64,000 bases of DNA from GCF_058153355.1 NZ_CM177019.1; one strand, 5' to 3'. Positions 52,621 to 60,261 are shown, numbered from the stretch's first letter. Numbers and translations are program-made. The notes: generated by a model not told the origin, from the sequence alone.

Positions 52621-52946
52621 AGTTTTATGTCCTGGTAGATATTTTGAATTTACCCTTTTTGAGAGGGTGGCCGGGCGCTCAAAACCGCTACCAGTCGGCG
52701 GGCGTATTTCCCTTCGGAAGGGTATTGTATTAGCCGCACGCCCGACCATTGAATTCTCAATATCGTGGACATAAAAAATCCGCATGACTGACGGGCGCGG
52801 TTTCCGCTGGTAATAAAGGTGTTTTGAGCACCATGAAGCGGAATATACCCATTGGTTATCGCGGATGTCAATGTATGCTTTTGCAAAAGGTTGTCATCCC
52901 CTTTGCAAAAACACCCGGCGTGCAACCGGGCGTCTGTGAAGGCGGG

Positions 52947-56498: not shown

Positions 56499-56693
56499 TC
56501 AGTTGGTATTGTGCGTACGTGGTACCACAAGGTTGAAGCGGACACGCCAGTGCGTTGCAATGGTATGCAGGAAAGCACCACATCCAGGGCAGTGCTCATA
56601 ACATTCGTTGATTTGGTATCGTTTTGGCTTTGGTGTCTGAAGCTGTGTTTGGCAAGCAGGGCATTCACCTTTGAGCGGTTTATACGTTTTCAC
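56499..56693 (-). CDS. Hypothetical zinc-ribbon protein
   Basis: 64-aa ORF with CPAC...CPGC pairs; GAGGAAA SD; first gene of leftward early operon. Confidence 0.45.
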   Translation of the reverse strand: MKTYKPLKGECPACQTQLQTPKPKRYQINECYEHCPGCGAFLHTIATHWRVRFNLVVPRTHNTN

Positions 56694-56859
56694 GCCGTTT
56701 CCTCATTCAGTTCACTTTGGTGGTTCGGCGGCTTCGACTTGTATCAGTAGACAGTGCTTCGCCGCACCCCAAAGGGAACTTACTGACCCGTATTGCCGAC
56801 ATCCTGTCCCGCCACGGTCCCGACGCATGGTTTAGAGTCGCGCCGTTCGACTTGTGGTT

Positions 56860-56940
56860 TAAATATCTGTGTATAGATATCTTAACCTAACGCATATAGT
56901 TAAGACCTCTAAACTCACAAAGTCAAGTGTTGTAGTTAAG
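56860..56940. promoter_or_regulatory. Putative left operator/promoter region
   Basis: CTTAAC-N12-GTTAAG inverted repeat (56871-56894) and further GTTAAG at 56935; same half-site as in the cI-cro intergenic region. Confidence 0.4.
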
Positions 56941-56963
56941 AAAAGTGAACTTTTTCGGATAGG

Positions 56964-56991
56964 TAAAGAAAAGCCCGCTTAGGAAGCGGGC
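56964..56991 (-). terminator. Intrinsic terminator downstream of repressor gene
   Basis: Minus strand GCCCGCTTCC-TAAG-CGGGC followed by TTTTCTTT, immediately after cI stop. Confidence 0.7.
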
Positions 56992-57015
56992 ATGTGGTAT
57001 AGAGTGAATTTACGC

Positions 57016-57708
57016 TCAGAGCAGAACGGAGTACCAAAATACTTGGCCTATAATCCTGATTTTATTAGCCTCTTGATTAAAATACTCTTCGTCTGCGTAT
57101 TCATCCCTATTGAAAGAGCGTATCCGGAGTCCGCTTGGGAGACGGTACAATAGTTTGACACGAAGTAATCCGTCTTGGTCTATAGCGTACATTTGACCAT
57201 CTTTTACACCTGTTTTTGATGTATCTATGCCGACGACAGCGCCATCCGGTAATACCGGTTCCATGCTGTTGCCGTGGATGCTGACACAAGCCGCACAATT
57301 TACGTCAACACCTGCTTTGCGCAACGTTGAACGGGCGAATCTTAACTTACATCCCATTCGATCTATATCAACATAAGTACCATTACCGGCAGATAGTTCA
57401 ATTTCCTGATAGAACGGTATTTCCACTTCATCATCCTCTAATGGCGTTGATGAGTCCCATACAGAAAACCCCCCTTCAACTTGTGCATTAGAATGTATTT
57501 CTTTGGTATCGCTTGTTTTGCCTGAAAGTAGCCACTCTGGAGAAACGTTCAATGCTTCGGCCAGATTTATAAGATTTTTCCCGTTAGGTGTAGTGTTTCC
57601 GGATTCCCATTGTGAAATCGTGGCTTTAGTTAGACCAATACGTTTAGCAAGCGCATCCTGCGTTAGGTGGACATTGCGACGAGCCTCGCGAATACGATCA
57701 TTAATCAT
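57016..57708 (-). CDS. cI: CI-type phage repressor (HTH + S24 LexA-like peptidase)
   Basis: 230-aa ORF; N-terminal LTQDALAKRIGLTKATISQWESG HTH; C-terminal S24 autopeptidase-like domain. Confidence 0.85.
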   Translation of the reverse strand: MINDRIREARRNVHLTQDALAKRIGLTKATISQWESGNTTPNGKNLINLAEALNVSPEWLLSGKTSDTKEIHSNAQVEGGFSVWDSSTPLEDDEVEIPFYQEIELSAGNGTYVDIDRMGCKLRFARSTLRKAGVDVNCAACVSIHGNSMEPVLPDGAVVGIDTSKTGVKDGQMYAIDQDGLLRVKLLYRLPSGLRIRSFNRDEYADEEYFNQEANKIRIIGQVFWYSVLL

Positions 57709-57821
57709 GGTTTTACCCTCATATAGTTTAGTTAGCTTAACTTAATCAGGGTATCGCTTTCTTGACTTATTGGTTTAGCTTTCTTAACCTCATATAACCA
57801 TATATTTCCTGGGTAACGGTT
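57709..57821. promoter_or_regulatory. Divergent promoter/operator region between cI and cro
   Basis: Rightward TTGACT (57772-57777) and TATAAC (57793-57798); repeated CTTAAC(C) half-sites at 57736 and 57783. Confidence 0.55.
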
Positions 57822-58004
57822 ATGAAAAAAGCAGAAGCAATTGAGCTTGCAGGAAGTAAAGCGAAACTAGCGAGACTATTGAAGGTTTCCAAAGGAGCCG
57901 TATCTCAATGGGGGGAGGAAATTCCAGAGCTAAGAGCTCTTCAACTTGAAAAGATTTTGGAGCAAAAAAATGTAGTCAAACAAAAAGGCGTAACCCATGT
58001 CTGA
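57822..58004 (+). CDS. cro: Cro-like HTH regulator
   Basis: 60-aa ORF with LAGSKAKLARLLKVSKGAVSQW HTH, divergent from cI. Confidence 0.65.
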   Translation: MKKAEAIELAGSKAKLARLLKVSKGAVSQWGEEIPELRALQLEKILEQKNVVKQKGVTHV

Positions 58005-60261
58005 TAACAAACCATGGGGAGCTACGCCCGATGAGTGGTTCCACTTCGATCTGGTGTTGGGGATGACAGACAGGCTTTTACCTGTGGTGTCCAATCCCTG
58101 TGCAGAACTGTCGCCTAATAGCAAGCTGTCTCATAATTTCGGCAAAACTCCCTGTTGCTACAATGGTCAACGTAAGGTTGTTGGTATCCCCGACTGGGCT
58201 AACTATGTTGTTACGGAAAACGATTTTGCCCGGTGGTCGAACGAACCCGATTACGGTATTTGCGTTCGTACTGGCGACGGGGTGGTGGCTCTGGACTGCG
58301 ATATCAATGACGCCGGGATGCAGGAGATCGTACGCAATATTATCCTGTCATGCCTGGGGGAACTTCCGCCACGTCGCTGGCGGGCTGACAGTCATAAATG
58401 CCTGTACCTGATTGCTGTTGATGGCGACTACCGTAAACGTGGTCACCGCCTGGAAGGCGAAAATAAACAAATAGAGCTGCTCGCTAAGGGCCAGCAGTTT
58501 GTGGCTTGTGGTACCCATCCGGCAGGCGAACGTATTCAGTGGGACTGCGGTTTGCCCGGCGAACCTCTGAAAATTACATCTGAACAGCTCGAAAGCCTGT
58601 GGCAGCGCCTGGCGGATAACTTACCCGTGAAAGACAGCTATACCGCAGGTGCGGGACGTCAGCGTGACCTTTCCTGTGTCGATCCTTCCGCGACAGATGA
58701 TGTCGCCGACTGGCTTGACGCGAACGGGTGGACTCTGTCGGTCAGCTCTGATGGTTCCCGCAATCTGAAACCGTTTCGGGATGAGTCAGAATACAGCAAC
58801 GGTTGCAGCGAAACATCCATTAAGTATTTCCCAAAAGGGACGGGGGGATTTGAACAGGGACATTTTAAAAGCATGCACAACACCGATGCGGGGCTTACTG
58901 ATGCCGACTGGCTGGAAGGCTACGGCTATACGCAATCTCTGTTCGAAGATCTCACGGTGGCTGAAGATGGCGATAAGCCTGAATTTACCGATATTAATAC
59001 AGATATGACAGCCCATTTTCTGGAACGCTTTATCTACGTCATCGAGGGTGACCAGGTATGTGATCTTAGCCGACCGCCATATCAGTGCATGATGGATATG
59101 AAGTCGTTCAAAAACCTGATGGCGCCTTACCAGTTCCCGCCAGAAGGGAAAGGGCAACCAGTCCCCGCAACCAAACGGTGGATAGAGCATCGGCATAAGA
59201 AGATTGCTGAGACGACAGGCTATAAGCCCGGTGCGGGACGTATTATCGAGCGTTTCGACGGGCGGTTTGAAATAAACGAATTTTATATGCCTGAACATCC
59301 ACGTACAGCGGATACAAGTAAGGTGTCCACGTTCCTTAATCATATGGCGTATCTGGTACCTGATGCCTGGCAGCGCGAGTTTTTCATCGCCCGTCTGGGA
59401 TGGATGGTTCAGCGTCCGGAGCGTCGATGCCCGATTTCTATTCTGCATGTGGCTACCGCACATGGTACGGGCAGAGGATGGGTCAGCCAGTTAATGGAGC
59501 GTGTGCTTGGTCCGTGGAACTGTGCTCGTACTCGCATGAAGATCCTGTGCGATAACCAGTTCCATGACTATCTGTACAATACGCTTCTATGCACCATTGA
59601 CGAGGTGCGCGAAAACGATAAGCGGTATGAGGTGAACGATAAGATCCGTGACGTGCTGACAGAACCACGGTTTGAAGTGAACCGCAAATATGGCAGCAAA
59701 AAAACGATGGATATATACACTGGCTTTCTGTTCTACACCAACCACTTTGATGCGCTGGCGCTGCCAGAGGAAGACAGACGTATCGCTGTGCTGGGGGGGC
59801 CTGACTTCGCCGCAACTGAAGAGCATTACGCCAGCCTGTACGGTGCGCTAAGCGACAGCGACTTTATCGCCCAGGTGTACTGGTATCTGATGGGTGTTGA
59901 CCTGTCTCGCTTTAACTGGCAGCGCGCCCCCGAGACGAAAGAACGCTTTCTGATGATTGAAAGCAATAAGAGCGATGTGGAGGCTGCTCTTATTGAAATC
60001 CTGGATAATCCGCCTGTGCCAGCAATGACTTATCAACAAATTGTTAACGCAATACTGGCAGAAGCAGGAATGGATGTAGAAATTAACCAGAAGCACATAA
60101 CAAAGCTATTGCGAGAAAAAACAAAAAGACAGCCAACAGATTTAGTAAAAATTGACGGAATGGGTTATCGCTTCTGGATACTTGCAAAAAATTGCGACTT
60201 CAATAATGAGGAATTGCGCGAAATATATAAAACTTGCGAAATTTTGCAATCTGGATTGTAA
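57997..60261 (+). CDS. Bifunctional primase-polymerase (PrimPol) fused to C-terminal NTPase/helicase-like domain
   Basis: 754-aa ORF; N-terminal PrimPol-like region; Walker B-like LLCTIDEV; start overlaps cro stop. Confidence 0.75.
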   Translation: MSDNKPWGATPDEWFHFDLVLGMTDRLLPVVSNPCAELSPNSKLSHNFGKTPCCYNGQRKVVGIPDWANYVVTENDFARWSNEPDYGICVRTGDGVVALDCDINDAGMQEIVRNIILSCLGELPPRRWRADSHKCLYLIAVDGDYRKRGHRLEGENKQIELLAKGQQFVACGTHPAGERIQWDCGLPGEPLKITSEQLESLWQRLADNLPVKDSYTAGAGRQRDLSCVDPSATDDVADWLDANGWTLSVSSDGSRNLKPFRDESEYSNGCSETSIKYFPKGTGGFEQGHFKSMHNTDAGLTDADWLEGYGYTQSLFEDLTVAEDGDKPEFTDINTDMTAHFLERFIYVIEGDQVCDLSRPPYQCMMDMKSFKNLMAPYQFPPEGKGQPVPATKRWIEHRHKKIAETTGYKPGAGRIIERFDGRFEINEFYMPEHPRTADTSKVSTFLNHMAYLVPDAWQREFFIARLGWMVQRPERRCPISILHVATAHGTGRGWVSQLMERVLGPWNCARTRMKILCDNQFHDYLYNTLLCTIDEVRENDKRYEVNDKIRDVLTEPRFEVNRKYGSKKTMDIYTGFLFYTNHFDALALPEEDRRIAVLGGPDFAATEEHYASLYGALSDSDFIAQVYWYLMGVDLSRFNWQRAPETKERFLMIESNKSDVEAALIEILDNPPVPAMTYQQIVNAILAEAGMDVEINQKHITKLLREKTKRQPTDLVKIDGMGYRFWILAKNCDFNNEELREIYKTCEILQSGL

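What the first reader, a model, noticed from the sequence alone, without database searches (positions are those of the whole stretch)
56860..57821. Candidate CI operator half-site CTTAAC shared by left and right control regions
Both the cI-cro intergenic region (57736, 57783) and the region just beyond the cI terminator (CTTAAC-N12-GTTAAG at 56871-56894, GTTAAG at 56935) carry the same hexamer, and the rightward promoter TTGACT/TATAAC is interleaved with it. This suggests OR and OL sites for the CI-like repressor, with cI separated from OL only by a terminator.
Basis: inference. Interest (0 to 1): 0.35.

Follow-up and report, generated by a model that had tools for sequence, protein, structure and literature searches.

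The report
Prophage repressor operators, P22-like type
The repeated CTTAAC hexamer is one half of a 16-bp binding site (GTTTAG-N4-CTTAAC) for the repressor and Cro of an E. coli prophage, arranged on both sides of the repressor gene much as in phage P22, so this is an ordinary genetic switch with a binding specificity I found described nowhere.

Summary
The hexamers are real. The left dyad lies at 56881-56904, not 56871-56894. They are strongly clustered: 5 in 221 bp of control DNA against about 0.13 expected. CTTAAC is the better-conserved half of a 16-bp pseudo-palindrome, GTTTAG-N4-CTTAAC. Its only matches at ≤1 mismatch in 64 kb are at 56871, 56899, 57726 and 57773, with weaker copies at 56935 and 57751. 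That gives three sites left of the repressor gene (OL) and three between the repressor gene (cI) and cro (OR).

In 23 related viral loci (repressor identity down to 52%) the 12 outer bases are invariant and the central 4 vary. The motif is missing from the three loci whose repressor and Cro recognition helices differ.

The repressor's N-terminal domain is closest to P22 C2, and the Cro belongs to the P22_Cro family. P22's operator (ATTTAAG-N4-CTTAAAT) has the same geometry, and P22's PL/OL lines up almost base for base.

Two details do not. The N12 dyad joins halves of two adjacent sites. The −10 TATAAC is unconserved and 25 bp from TTGACT; the conserved candidate is TAACCT, inside the operator.

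This is a new member of a known kind. No binding experiment exists.

The parts
56871..56886 (+). OL site L1, GTATAGATATCTTAAC (1 mismatch to consensus). It lies downstream of the inferred PL start and has no P22 counterpart.
   Evidence: It is conserved in position, 28 bp from L2, in relatives. Half-site identity is 0.86.
56899..56914 (-). OL site L2, GTTTAGAGGTCTTAAC (exact). This is the core operator of PL, filling the spacer and overlapping the -10. It is the counterpart of P22 OL1.
   Evidence: Half-site identity is 0.99 against 0.69 for the centre. Comparison with P22 PL.
56897..56902 (-). Inferred PL -10, TAACTA, starting at the third base of the CTTAAC half-site.
   Evidence: Inferred from the register of P22's annotated PL -10, TAAATT. 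Conservation is 0.89, against 0.54 for the neighbouring TATATG.
56921..56926 (-). PL -35, TTGACT.
   Evidence: Identity 0.93 across 9 diverged loci. It aligns with P22's annotated PL -35, TTGACC.
56935..56950 (-). OL site L3, GTTCACTTTTCTTAAC (2 mismatches), 7 bp upstream of the -35 in 18-bp site terms. It is the counterpart of P22 OL2.
   Evidence: The GTTAAGA half is invariant and the other half is degenerate. P22 OL2 has the same 7-bp offset (read).
56973..56991 (-). Intrinsic terminator of the repressor transcript: an 8-bp stem (GCCCGC..GCGGGC) followed by a T run.
   Evidence: It is conserved in relatives, with stem changes on both sides in L018 and L027.
57016..57708 (-). Repressor (CI-like) gene, 230 aa: an HTH_3 domain plus a Peptidase_S24 domain. 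The recognition helix is TKATISQWES (residues 27-36). The Ala-Gly of SAG(106-108), GNSMEP at 146 and RVKLL at 183 match the self-cleavage motifs.
57726..57741 (+). OR site R3, GTTTAGTTAGCTTAAC (exact), nearest the repressor gene. It overlaps the inferred PRM -10 and is the counterpart of P22 OR3.
   Evidence: Half-site identity is 1.00. It aligns with P22 OR3.
57734..57739 (-). Inferred PRM -10, TAAGCT, with a poor -35 AGAAAG at 57757-57762 on the - strand. This is the least certain part.
   Evidence: Inferred from the register of P22's annotated PRM (-10 TAAGAT inside OR3, -35 inside OR2). Three of the four central bases of R3 are conserved, unlike the other sites. L021 has TAAGAT here.
57751..57766 (+). 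Candidate weak OR site R2, GTATCGCTTTCTTGAC (3 mismatches), 25 bp from R3 and 22 bp from R1. It is the positional counterpart of P22 OR2.
   Evidence: P22 spacings are 25 and 23 bp. Its right half coincides with the PR -35, so its conservation is ambiguous.
57762..57767 (+). PR -35, TTGACT.
   Evidence: Invariant in 10 diverged loci.
57773..57788 (+). OR site R1, GTTTAGCTTTCTTAAC (exact). This is the core operator of PR, filling the spacer and overlapping the -10.
   Evidence: Half-site identity is 0.99 against 0.78 for the centre.
57785..57790 (+). Inferred PR -10, TAACCT, 17 bp after TTGACT.
Evidence: It is the only hexamer at 15-19 bp spacing with T1, A2 and T6 (read).
57822..58004 (+). cro gene, 60 aa, P22_Cro family. 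The recognition helix is SKGAVSQWG.
   Evidence: 60 bits against a cut-off of 30.2. (37% identity to P22 Cro). The helix is conserved together with the motif.
56858..57983 (.). The exchangeable immunity cassette: OL, terminator, repressor gene, OR and cro, bounded by mosaic junctions.
   Evidence: The eight partial-match rows listed all match only query bases 1-458, ending at window 56857. Four phage records begin matching at query base 1584, window 57983. CB9615 carries a different repressor/cro pair in the same slot.

Best explanation
The region is the immunity switch of an E. coli prophage, built on the P22 immC plan.

A LexA-like, self-cleaving repressor (CI; 57016-57708, - strand) and a P22-type Cro (57822-58004, + strand) are transcribed divergently. 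Both are predicted to bind, as dimers, a 16-bp pseudo-palindromic operator, GT(T/A)TAG-N4-CTTAAC. It has two 6-bp half-sites around a 4-bp centre whose sequence is free.

Three sites lie between the two genes: R3 57726, weak R2 57751 and R1 57773. Three lie just beyond the repressor gene's terminator: L3 56935, L2 56899 and L1 56871.

R1 and L2 fill the spacer of the early promoters and overlap their -10:
- PR = TTGACT (57762) - N17 - TAACCT.
- PL = TTGACT (56926..56921, - strand) - N18 - TAACTA.

A repressor bound at R1 and L2 would therefore exclude RNA polymerase and keep the prophage silent. R3 overlaps the likely maintenance promoter of the repressor gene, which would give negative autoregulation and a Cro target. 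RecA-stimulated self-cleavage of the repressor would release PR and PL.

Shown: the existence, clustering, conservation and co-variation of the sites, and the homology to P22 c2 and Cro. Inferred: binding itself, the -10 and PRM assignments, the role of R2, and cooperativity.
For: - Matches to GTTTAG-N4-CTTAAC at ≤1 mismatch number 4 in 64 kb against 0.19 expected, and all lie in the two control regions. The 19.7 kb held of a near-identical prophage gives the same result.
- All 23 related viral loci whose repressor keeps the helix (T/S)K(A/S)TISQWES, down to 52% identity, have the sites at the same relative positions. The three loci with other helices have none. Cro's helix co-varies in the same way.
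- Half-site identity is 0.85-1.00, centres 0.68-0.83, and intergenic DNA outside the sites 0.57-0.61.
- A census that assumed no consensus ranks CTTAAC and CTAAAC first (19 of 19 regions) and GTTTA-N5-CTTAA as the top gapped pattern.
- The best solved relative is the P22 C2 N-terminal domain (E=5e-14; 39% identity). The Cro is in the P22_Cro family.
- The P22 operator consensus is ATTTAAGATATCTTAAAT, with TTAAG half-sites and a 4-bp centre (PMC5175364).
- P22's record annotates OL1-3 beside c2 and OR1-3 between c2 and cro. Its PL -10 starts at the third base of the OL1 half-site, and its OR spacings are 25/23 bp against 25/22 here.
- Two heteroimmune loci carry their own dyads at the equivalent left and right positions. 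One is the CB9615 cassette on the same prophage backbone. The other is the unrelated viral contig L025.
Against: - There is no binding, footprinting or transcript-start data; every functional step is inferred.
- The inferred -10 hexamers match the consensus at only 3 of 6 positions, and the consensus promoter scan reported no promoter.
- R2 has 3 mismatches, and its conserved right half is also the PR -35, so it may not be an operator.
- The repressor and Cro are inherited together with the sites, so comparison cannot say which of them binds.
- The strict asymmetry (always GTTTAG on one side and CTTAAC on the other) is not what a symmetric dimer alone would predict.
- The PR -35 sits between R2 and R1 here but between OR3 and OR2 in P22, so the analogy is not exact.
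Confidence: 0.85

Rival explanations
1. One reading: the operator unit is the wide dyad CTTAAC-N12-GTTAAG (56881-56904), with the single hexamers elsewhere acting as isolated half-sites.
For: The dyad exists, and the 12-bp gap is kept in most relatives, with L1 to L2 spaced 28 bp start to start. CTTAA-N13-GTTAA ranked ninth in the gapped census, with 14 occurrences.
Against: No such dyad exists in OR, where the hexamers are 47 bp apart and in the same orientation. Each hexamer has a conserved partner (GTTTAG or GTATAG) 4 bp away. GTTTA-N5-CTTAA is twice as frequent, with 29 occurrences. The 12 bp between the arms are not conserved. P22 c2, the closest solved relative, binds half-sites 4 bp apart.
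Confidence: 0.04
2. The conserved blocks are promoter elements only (-35, -10, UP-like sequences). They are conserved for RNA polymerase, not as repressor sites.
For: TTGACT is invariant in both regions, and the CTTAAC halves of R1, L2 and R3 overlap the inferred -10 hexamers.
Against: The same 16-bp unit also occurs where no promoter element is expected: L1 is downstream of PL and L3 is upstream of its -35. The GTTTAG halves lie in promoter spacers, which are normally free to vary, yet are invariant. The pattern of 6 conserved, 4 variable, 6 conserved bases matches the P22 c2 dimer footprint. The motif disappears when the recognition helices change.
Confidence: 0.05
3. Only one of the two proteins (Cro alone, or the repressor alone) recognises the 16-bp sites, and the other acts at a different sequence.
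For: Both proteins are inherited together with the sites, so comparison cannot separate them.
Against: The two recognition helices resemble each other (TKATISQWES and SKGAVSQWG), as do those of P22 c2 and Cro. From established knowledge of P22, c2 and Cro share the same operators. No second conserved repeated motif is seen in OR or OL.
Confidence: 0.06

Closest known systems
Salmonella phage P22 immC region (c2 repressor, Cro, OL1-3, OR1-3)
   Same: - The repressor's N-terminal domain is the best match among solved structures (1ADR, 2R1J) and is 39% identical. Cro is in the same Pfam family and 37% identical.
- The operator geometry is the same: TTAAG-type half-sites around a 4-bp centre.
- The order is the same: OL, repressor gene, OR, cro, with OL next to the repressor gene.
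- The PL design is nearly base for base the same: an upstream site, 7 bp, TTGAC(T/C), 5-6 bp, then a core site whose CTTAA half overlaps the -10.
- OR spacings are 25/22 bp here against 25/23 bp.
   Different: - Recognition residues differ. P22 S31-N32-V33-A34 is T-K-A-T here, so the 'valine cleft' residue is alanine. P22 E42, E44 and E48 are N, T and K.
- The operator's outer base is G/C rather than T/A, one half is GTTTAG, and the centres are not A/T-rich.
- P22's own operators match this motif with 2 mismatches at best, so a distinct immunity is likely.
- The PR -35 lies between R2 and R1, not between OR3 and OR2.
- There is an extra site, L1, downstream of PL, and an intrinsic terminator between the repressor gene and OL.
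- The C-terminal domains are not detectably similar by BLASTP.
- The phage backbone is unrelated: a DNA polymerase/DUF2800/DUF2815 left arm and a prim-pol replicase.
Phage lambda OR/OL switch (CI, Cro)
   Same: Divergent repressor and cro genes, a tripartite OR, an OL that controls a leftward early operon, and an S24 self-cleaving repressor. The back-to-back PRM/PR arrangement flanking the middle site is inferred, and the comparison with lambda rests on established knowledge.
   Different: Lambda has 17-bp operators of unrelated sequence, and rexAB lies between cI and OL. Lambda's Cro has a different fold family from P22_Cro. No N or cII homologue is evident next to this switch.
Heteroimmune cassette of the same prophage family (E. 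coli O55:H7 CB9615, locus L002)
   Same: It has the same backbone up to the junction at window 56857 and the same slot layout: left sites, repressor gene, right sites, then an HTH gene and a replicase.
   Different: It has a different LexA-family repressor (207 aa) and a different dyad, ATACAA-N6-TTGTAT. It has no GTTTAG-N4-CTTAAC at ≤2 mismatches.

Membership tests
P22 c2/Cro-type immunity region | The repressor has an N-terminal HTH domain homologous to the P22 c2 N-terminal domain. | tested here: met
   Best PDB matches are 1ADR, 3JXB and 2R1J, with E=5e-14 to 6e-13. BLASTP gives 39% identity over 84 aa, E=5e-19.
P22 c2/Cro-type immunity region | A divergently transcribed Cro of the P22_Cro family. 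| tested here: met
   PF14549 scores 60 bits against a cut-off of 30.2. Identity to P22 Cro is 37%, E=4e-11.
P22 c2/Cro-type immunity region | Operators made of two TTAAG-like half-sites around a 4-bp centre that the protein does not contact, in several copies. | tested here: met
   GTTTAG-N4-CTTAAC occurs six times. The outer 12 bases are invariant and the centre varies in relatives. The P22 consensus comes from PMC5175364.
P22 c2/Cro-type immunity region | Operator clusters on both sides of the repressor gene, overlapping PL and PR/PRM. | tested here: met
   Site positions. P22 annotation. Alignment to P22 PL and OR. The promoter assignments themselves are inferred.
P22 c2/Cro-type immunity region | A tripartite OR with a weak middle site that is filled cooperatively. 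| tested here: inconclusive
   R2 is at the P22-like spacing (25/22 against 25/23 bp) but has 3 mismatches and overlaps the PR -35. Cooperativity cannot be tested here.
P22 c2/Cro-type immunity region | The same DNA specificity as P22 (homoimmunity). | tested here: not met
   The recognition helix differs at four consecutive positions, including V33 to A. The best match to this motif in P22's immC has 2 mismatches. So this has the same design but is probably a different immunity type.
P22 c2/Cro-type immunity region | The repressor and Cro physically bind these sites and repress PR and PL. | not testable with these tools
   Needs gel-shift or footprinting assays and reporter assays.
LexA/CI-type SOS-inducible repressors (Peptidase S24) | An S24 domain with an Ala-Gly cleavage site and a Ser/Lys dyad. 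| tested here: met
   PF00717 E=2.8e-17. SAG is at residues 106-108, GNSMEP at 146 and RVKLL at 183. Cleavage itself was not tested.

The most novel reading that the evidence does not exclude
The invariant asymmetry of the strong sites (always GTTTAG on one side and CTTAAC on the other, never a symmetric version) might reflect a built-in coupling. The TTAA core of the CTTAAC half would double as the start of a -10 hexamer at all three promoters (TAACCT, TAACTA and TAAGCT, read on either strand). Operator specificity and promoter identity would then be forced to evolve together. The GTTTAG half might also let the repressor and Cro tell sites or orientations apart. The extra downstream site L1, and the 0.87 kb between OL and OR, could further support roadblock or looping control that P22 lacks.
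Probability: 0.15. Interest if true: 0.35.

Novelty: new member of a known kind. Interest (0 to 1): 0.2.

Why it matters
It gives a concrete, testable operator consensus and site map for an uncharacterised immunity type. That type occurs in 17 of 5426 complete E. coli genomes and in related viral contigs. The analysis also shows that OL, the repressor gene, OR and cro travel as one 1.1-kb exchangeable cassette in this prophage family. This helps with prophage annotation, with predicting superinfection immunity groups, and as a natural variant for studying how P22 c2-type helices read DNA (alanine replaces the 'valine cleft' residue). It does not change how such switches are understood.

Tried and rejected
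1. Rejected because it is absent from OR, each hexamer has a conserved partner 4 bp away, and the 12-bp gap is not conserved.

2. The -35 is kept because it is invariant. The -10 is rejected because the spacing is 25 bp and conservation only 0.47. TTGGTT-N17-TATAAC is also dropped, because neither hexamer is conserved.

3. The consensus sigma-70 scan found no promoter in 56600-58000. Promoters were instead inferred from conservation and from the P22 annotation.

4. A P22-like position for PR, with the -35 between R3 and R2. No conserved -35 or -10 lies there (read).

5. Rfam found no RNA family in 56-58 kb. The PL leader folds only modestly better than shuffles, z=-2.2.

6. Literature searches for this operator sequence or this prophage's switch returned only irrelevant papers.

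7. No deposited phage genome encodes this repressor above 49% identity, and the near-DNA search of phages matched only the cro-replicase junction.

8. Motif matches with 2 mismatches at 32.4 kb and elsewhere in the window lie in host chromosome or coding DNA, and their number is at chance level.

Full report
**What is in the sequence**

The window from 56.4 to 58.1 kb holds four genes:
- a 230-aa repressor gene on the - strand (57016-57708; HTH_3 plus Peptidase_S24 domains);
- a 113-bp intergenic region;
- a 60-aa cro on the + strand (57822-58004; P22_Cro family, 60 bits against a cut-off of 30.2);
- a prim-pol/DUF5906 replicase (57997-60261).

An intrinsic terminator for the repressor transcript lies at 56973-56991 on the - strand. 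Window bases 1 to about 43 kb are E. coli chromosome, with an rrn operon, rseC and rnc. The element is a prophage whose left arm encodes a DNA polymerase, DUF2800, DUF2815, VRR-NUC and SNF2 proteins. Its right arm encodes a Q antiterminator, lysis genes and terminase.

**Checking the observation**

CTTAAC is at 57736 and 57783, and GTTAAG is at 56935, as stated. The dyad CTTAAC-N12-GTTAAG exists, but at 56881-56904, ten bases right of the stated coordinates.

Window-wide the hexamer is only mildly enriched: 41 against 27.7±5.1 expected. However, five copies fall in the 221 bp of non-coding control DNA against 0.12-0.15 expected, P≈2-5e-7.

TTGACT (57762) and TATAAC (57793) are both present but 25 bp apart.

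**The real unit**

Repeat analysis and a mismatch scan show that each hexamer is the right half of a 16-bp pseudo-palindrome, GTTTAG-N4-CTTAAC.

| Site | Coordinates | Strand | Sequence | Mismatches |
|---|---|---|---|---|
| L1 | 56871-56886 | + | GTATAGATATCTTAAC | 1 |
| L2 | 56899-56914 | - | GTTTAGAGGTCTTAAC | 0 |
| L3 | 56935-56950 | - | GTTCACTTTTCTTAAC | 2 |
| R3 | 57726-57741 | + | GTTTAGTTAGCTTAAC | 0 |
| R2 | 57751-57766 | + | GTATCGCTTTCTTGAC | 3 |
| R1 | 57773-57788 | + | GTTTAGCTTTCTTAAC | 0 |

At ≤1 mismatch there are 4 matches in the window against 0.19 expected, and none lies outside the two control regions. The 19.7 kb held of a near-identical prophage gives the same result.

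**Comparative evidence**

A scan of viral contigs returned 26 loci encoding relatives of the repressor, from 100% down to 28% identity.

- All 23 loci that keep the recognition helix (T/S)K(A/S)TISQWES, down to 52% identity, have two exact or near-exact sites upstream of the repressor gene. They also have two or three sites downstream of it, at constant spacing.
- The three loci with other helices (L025, L026, L028) have none.
- Cro's helix, (S/T)KGAVSQW, is conserved in the same set.

In alignments of diverged representatives, identity to the window sequence was as follows:

| Element | Identity |
|---|---|
| Half-sites | 0.85-1.00 |
| 4-bp centres | 0.68-0.83 |
| Intergenic DNA outside the sites | 0.57-0.61 |
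| PR -35 / PL -35 (TTGACT) | 1.00 / 0.93 |
| TAACCT (57785-57790) | 0.98 |

A census that assumed no consensus ranked CTTAAC and CTAAAC first (19 of 19 regions). It ranked GTTTA-N5-CTTAA as the top gapped pattern, with 29 occurrences.

**The cassette**

The eight partial-match E. coli genomes listed match the window only up to 56857. Four phage records begin to match at 57983. OL, the terminator, the repressor gene, OR and cro therefore form a 1.1-kb mosaic unit.

In E. coli O55:H7 CB9615 the same slot holds a different LexA-family repressor. That cassette has its own dyad, ATACAA-N6-TTGTAT, and all three matches at ≤1 mismatch lie in the equivalent left and right regions. It has no GTTTAG-N4-CTTAAC. 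L025 likewise has its own ATAAGTTAT-type dyads on both sides of its repressor gene.

The layout is thus general, and the motif tracks the proteins.

**Relation to P22**

The best solved relatives of the repressor are the P22 C2 N-terminal domain structures, 1ADR, 3JXB and 2R1J (E=5e-14 to 6e-13). Identity is 39% over the N-terminal 84 residues, and the C-terminal domains are not detectably similar.

P22 c2 binds six operators with the consensus ATTTAAGATATCTTAAAT. These are TTAAG half-sites around a 4-bp centre that the protein does not contact, with V33 packed against the TTAA methyl groups (PMC5175364).

The P22 record annotates OL1-3 38 bp beyond c2, and OR1-3 between c2 and cro. Its PL is TTGACC-N17-TAAATT, with the -10 beginning at the third base of the OL1 half-site.

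Read without gaps, the two PL regions correspond almost base for base:
- here: AGTTCACTTTTCTTAACT-ACAACAC-TTGACT-TTGTGA-GTTTAGAGGTCTTAAC;
- P22: ATTTAAGTTTTCTTCAAA-AATACAC-TTGACC-ATTTA-ATTAAGAAGTCTTAAA.

The three OR sites are positional counterparts of OR3, OR2 and OR1, with spacings of 25/22 bp against 25/23 bp.

There are also differences:
- The helix residues S31-N32-V33-A34 of P22 are T-K-A-T here, and E42, E44 and E48 are N, T and K.
- The outer operator base is G/C, and the centres are not A/T-rich.
- The PR -35 lies between R2 and R1 rather than between OR3 and OR2.
- L1 has no P22 counterpart.
- A terminator separates the repressor gene from OL.

**Mechanism**

The following is inferred.

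- PR = TTGACT (57762-57767), N17, TAACCT (57785-57790).
- PL = TTGACT (56926..56921), N18, TAACTA (56902..56897) on the - strand.

R1 and L2 fill the spacer and overlap the -10 of these promoters, so a bound repressor dimer would exclude RNA polymerase.

By the register of P22's annotated PRM, the maintenance promoter would be AGAAAG (57762..57757), N17, TAAGCT (57739..57734). Its -10 would lie inside R3 and its -35 inside R2. This would explain why three of R3's four central bases are conserved, unlike those of the other sites.

Repressor self-cleavage (SAG at 106-108, GNSMEP at 146, RVKLL at 183) would lift repression after DNA damage. Cro would then act at the same sites.

**Caveats**

- There is no experimental evidence.
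- The inferred -10 hexamers match the consensus at 3 of 6 positions, and the consensus scan found no promoter.
- R2 may be conserved only because it overlaps a -35.
- The repressor and Cro cannot be separated by comparison.
- The strict GTTTAG/CTTAAC asymmetry is unexplained.

**Novelty**

No deposited phage genome encodes this repressor above 49% identity. No paper in the held library describes this operator. The complete module is in 17 of 5426 complete E. coli genomes.

This is a new immunity specificity within a thoroughly understood kind of switch. The finding is correct in its main claim and is ordinary.

Noticed in passing
window 56499-56693 (- strand): An unannotated 64-aa ORF with two CxxC pairs. 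It has a GTG start and a GAGGA Shine-Dalgarno sequence 6 nt upstream, and would be the first gene of the PL operon. Pfam gives only sub-threshold zinc-ribbon hits. The near-identical RefSeq prophage does not annotate it.
   Followed up: partly
window 56694-56857: The roughly 165-nt PL leader is backbone shared with heteroimmune prophages. The mosaic junction (56857/56858) directly follows the second copy of a direct repeat, TTCGACTTGT (56733 and 56846). The RNA folds only modestly better than shuffles, z=-2.2.
   Followed up: partly
window 52661-52747 (- strand): An Rfam sRNA-Xcc1 match (68 bits against a gathering score of 53) in the prophage left arm. In the near-identical prophage the corresponding position lies between a small hypothetical gene and the Nmad5-family gene.
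   Followed up: no
L021 2276-2821: In this relative (repressor 60% identical) the OL-type sites lie about 1 kb beyond the repressor gene. An AT-rich 181-aa ORF on the opposite strand sits in between. This is an accessory-gene position like lambda rex or P22 sieB.
   Followed up: partly
L002 4465-4482, 5286-5303, 5331-5348: The heteroimmune cassette of E. coli O55:H7 CB9615 has its own candidate operator dyad, ATACAA-N6-TTGTAT, in both its left and right control regions.
   Followed up: partly
window 1-43000: The first two thirds of the window are E. coli chromosome: the Phe leader, RyfD, an rrn operon at 11.7-16.8 kb, AsrC/rseC, rncO and ohsC. The prophage therefore starts after about 43 kb and runs off the right end of the window.
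   Followed up: no
window 57983-58063: The cro-replicase junction is a second mosaic point. Relatives switch between DUF5906-type and VapE-type replicase genes just after cro.
   Followed up: no
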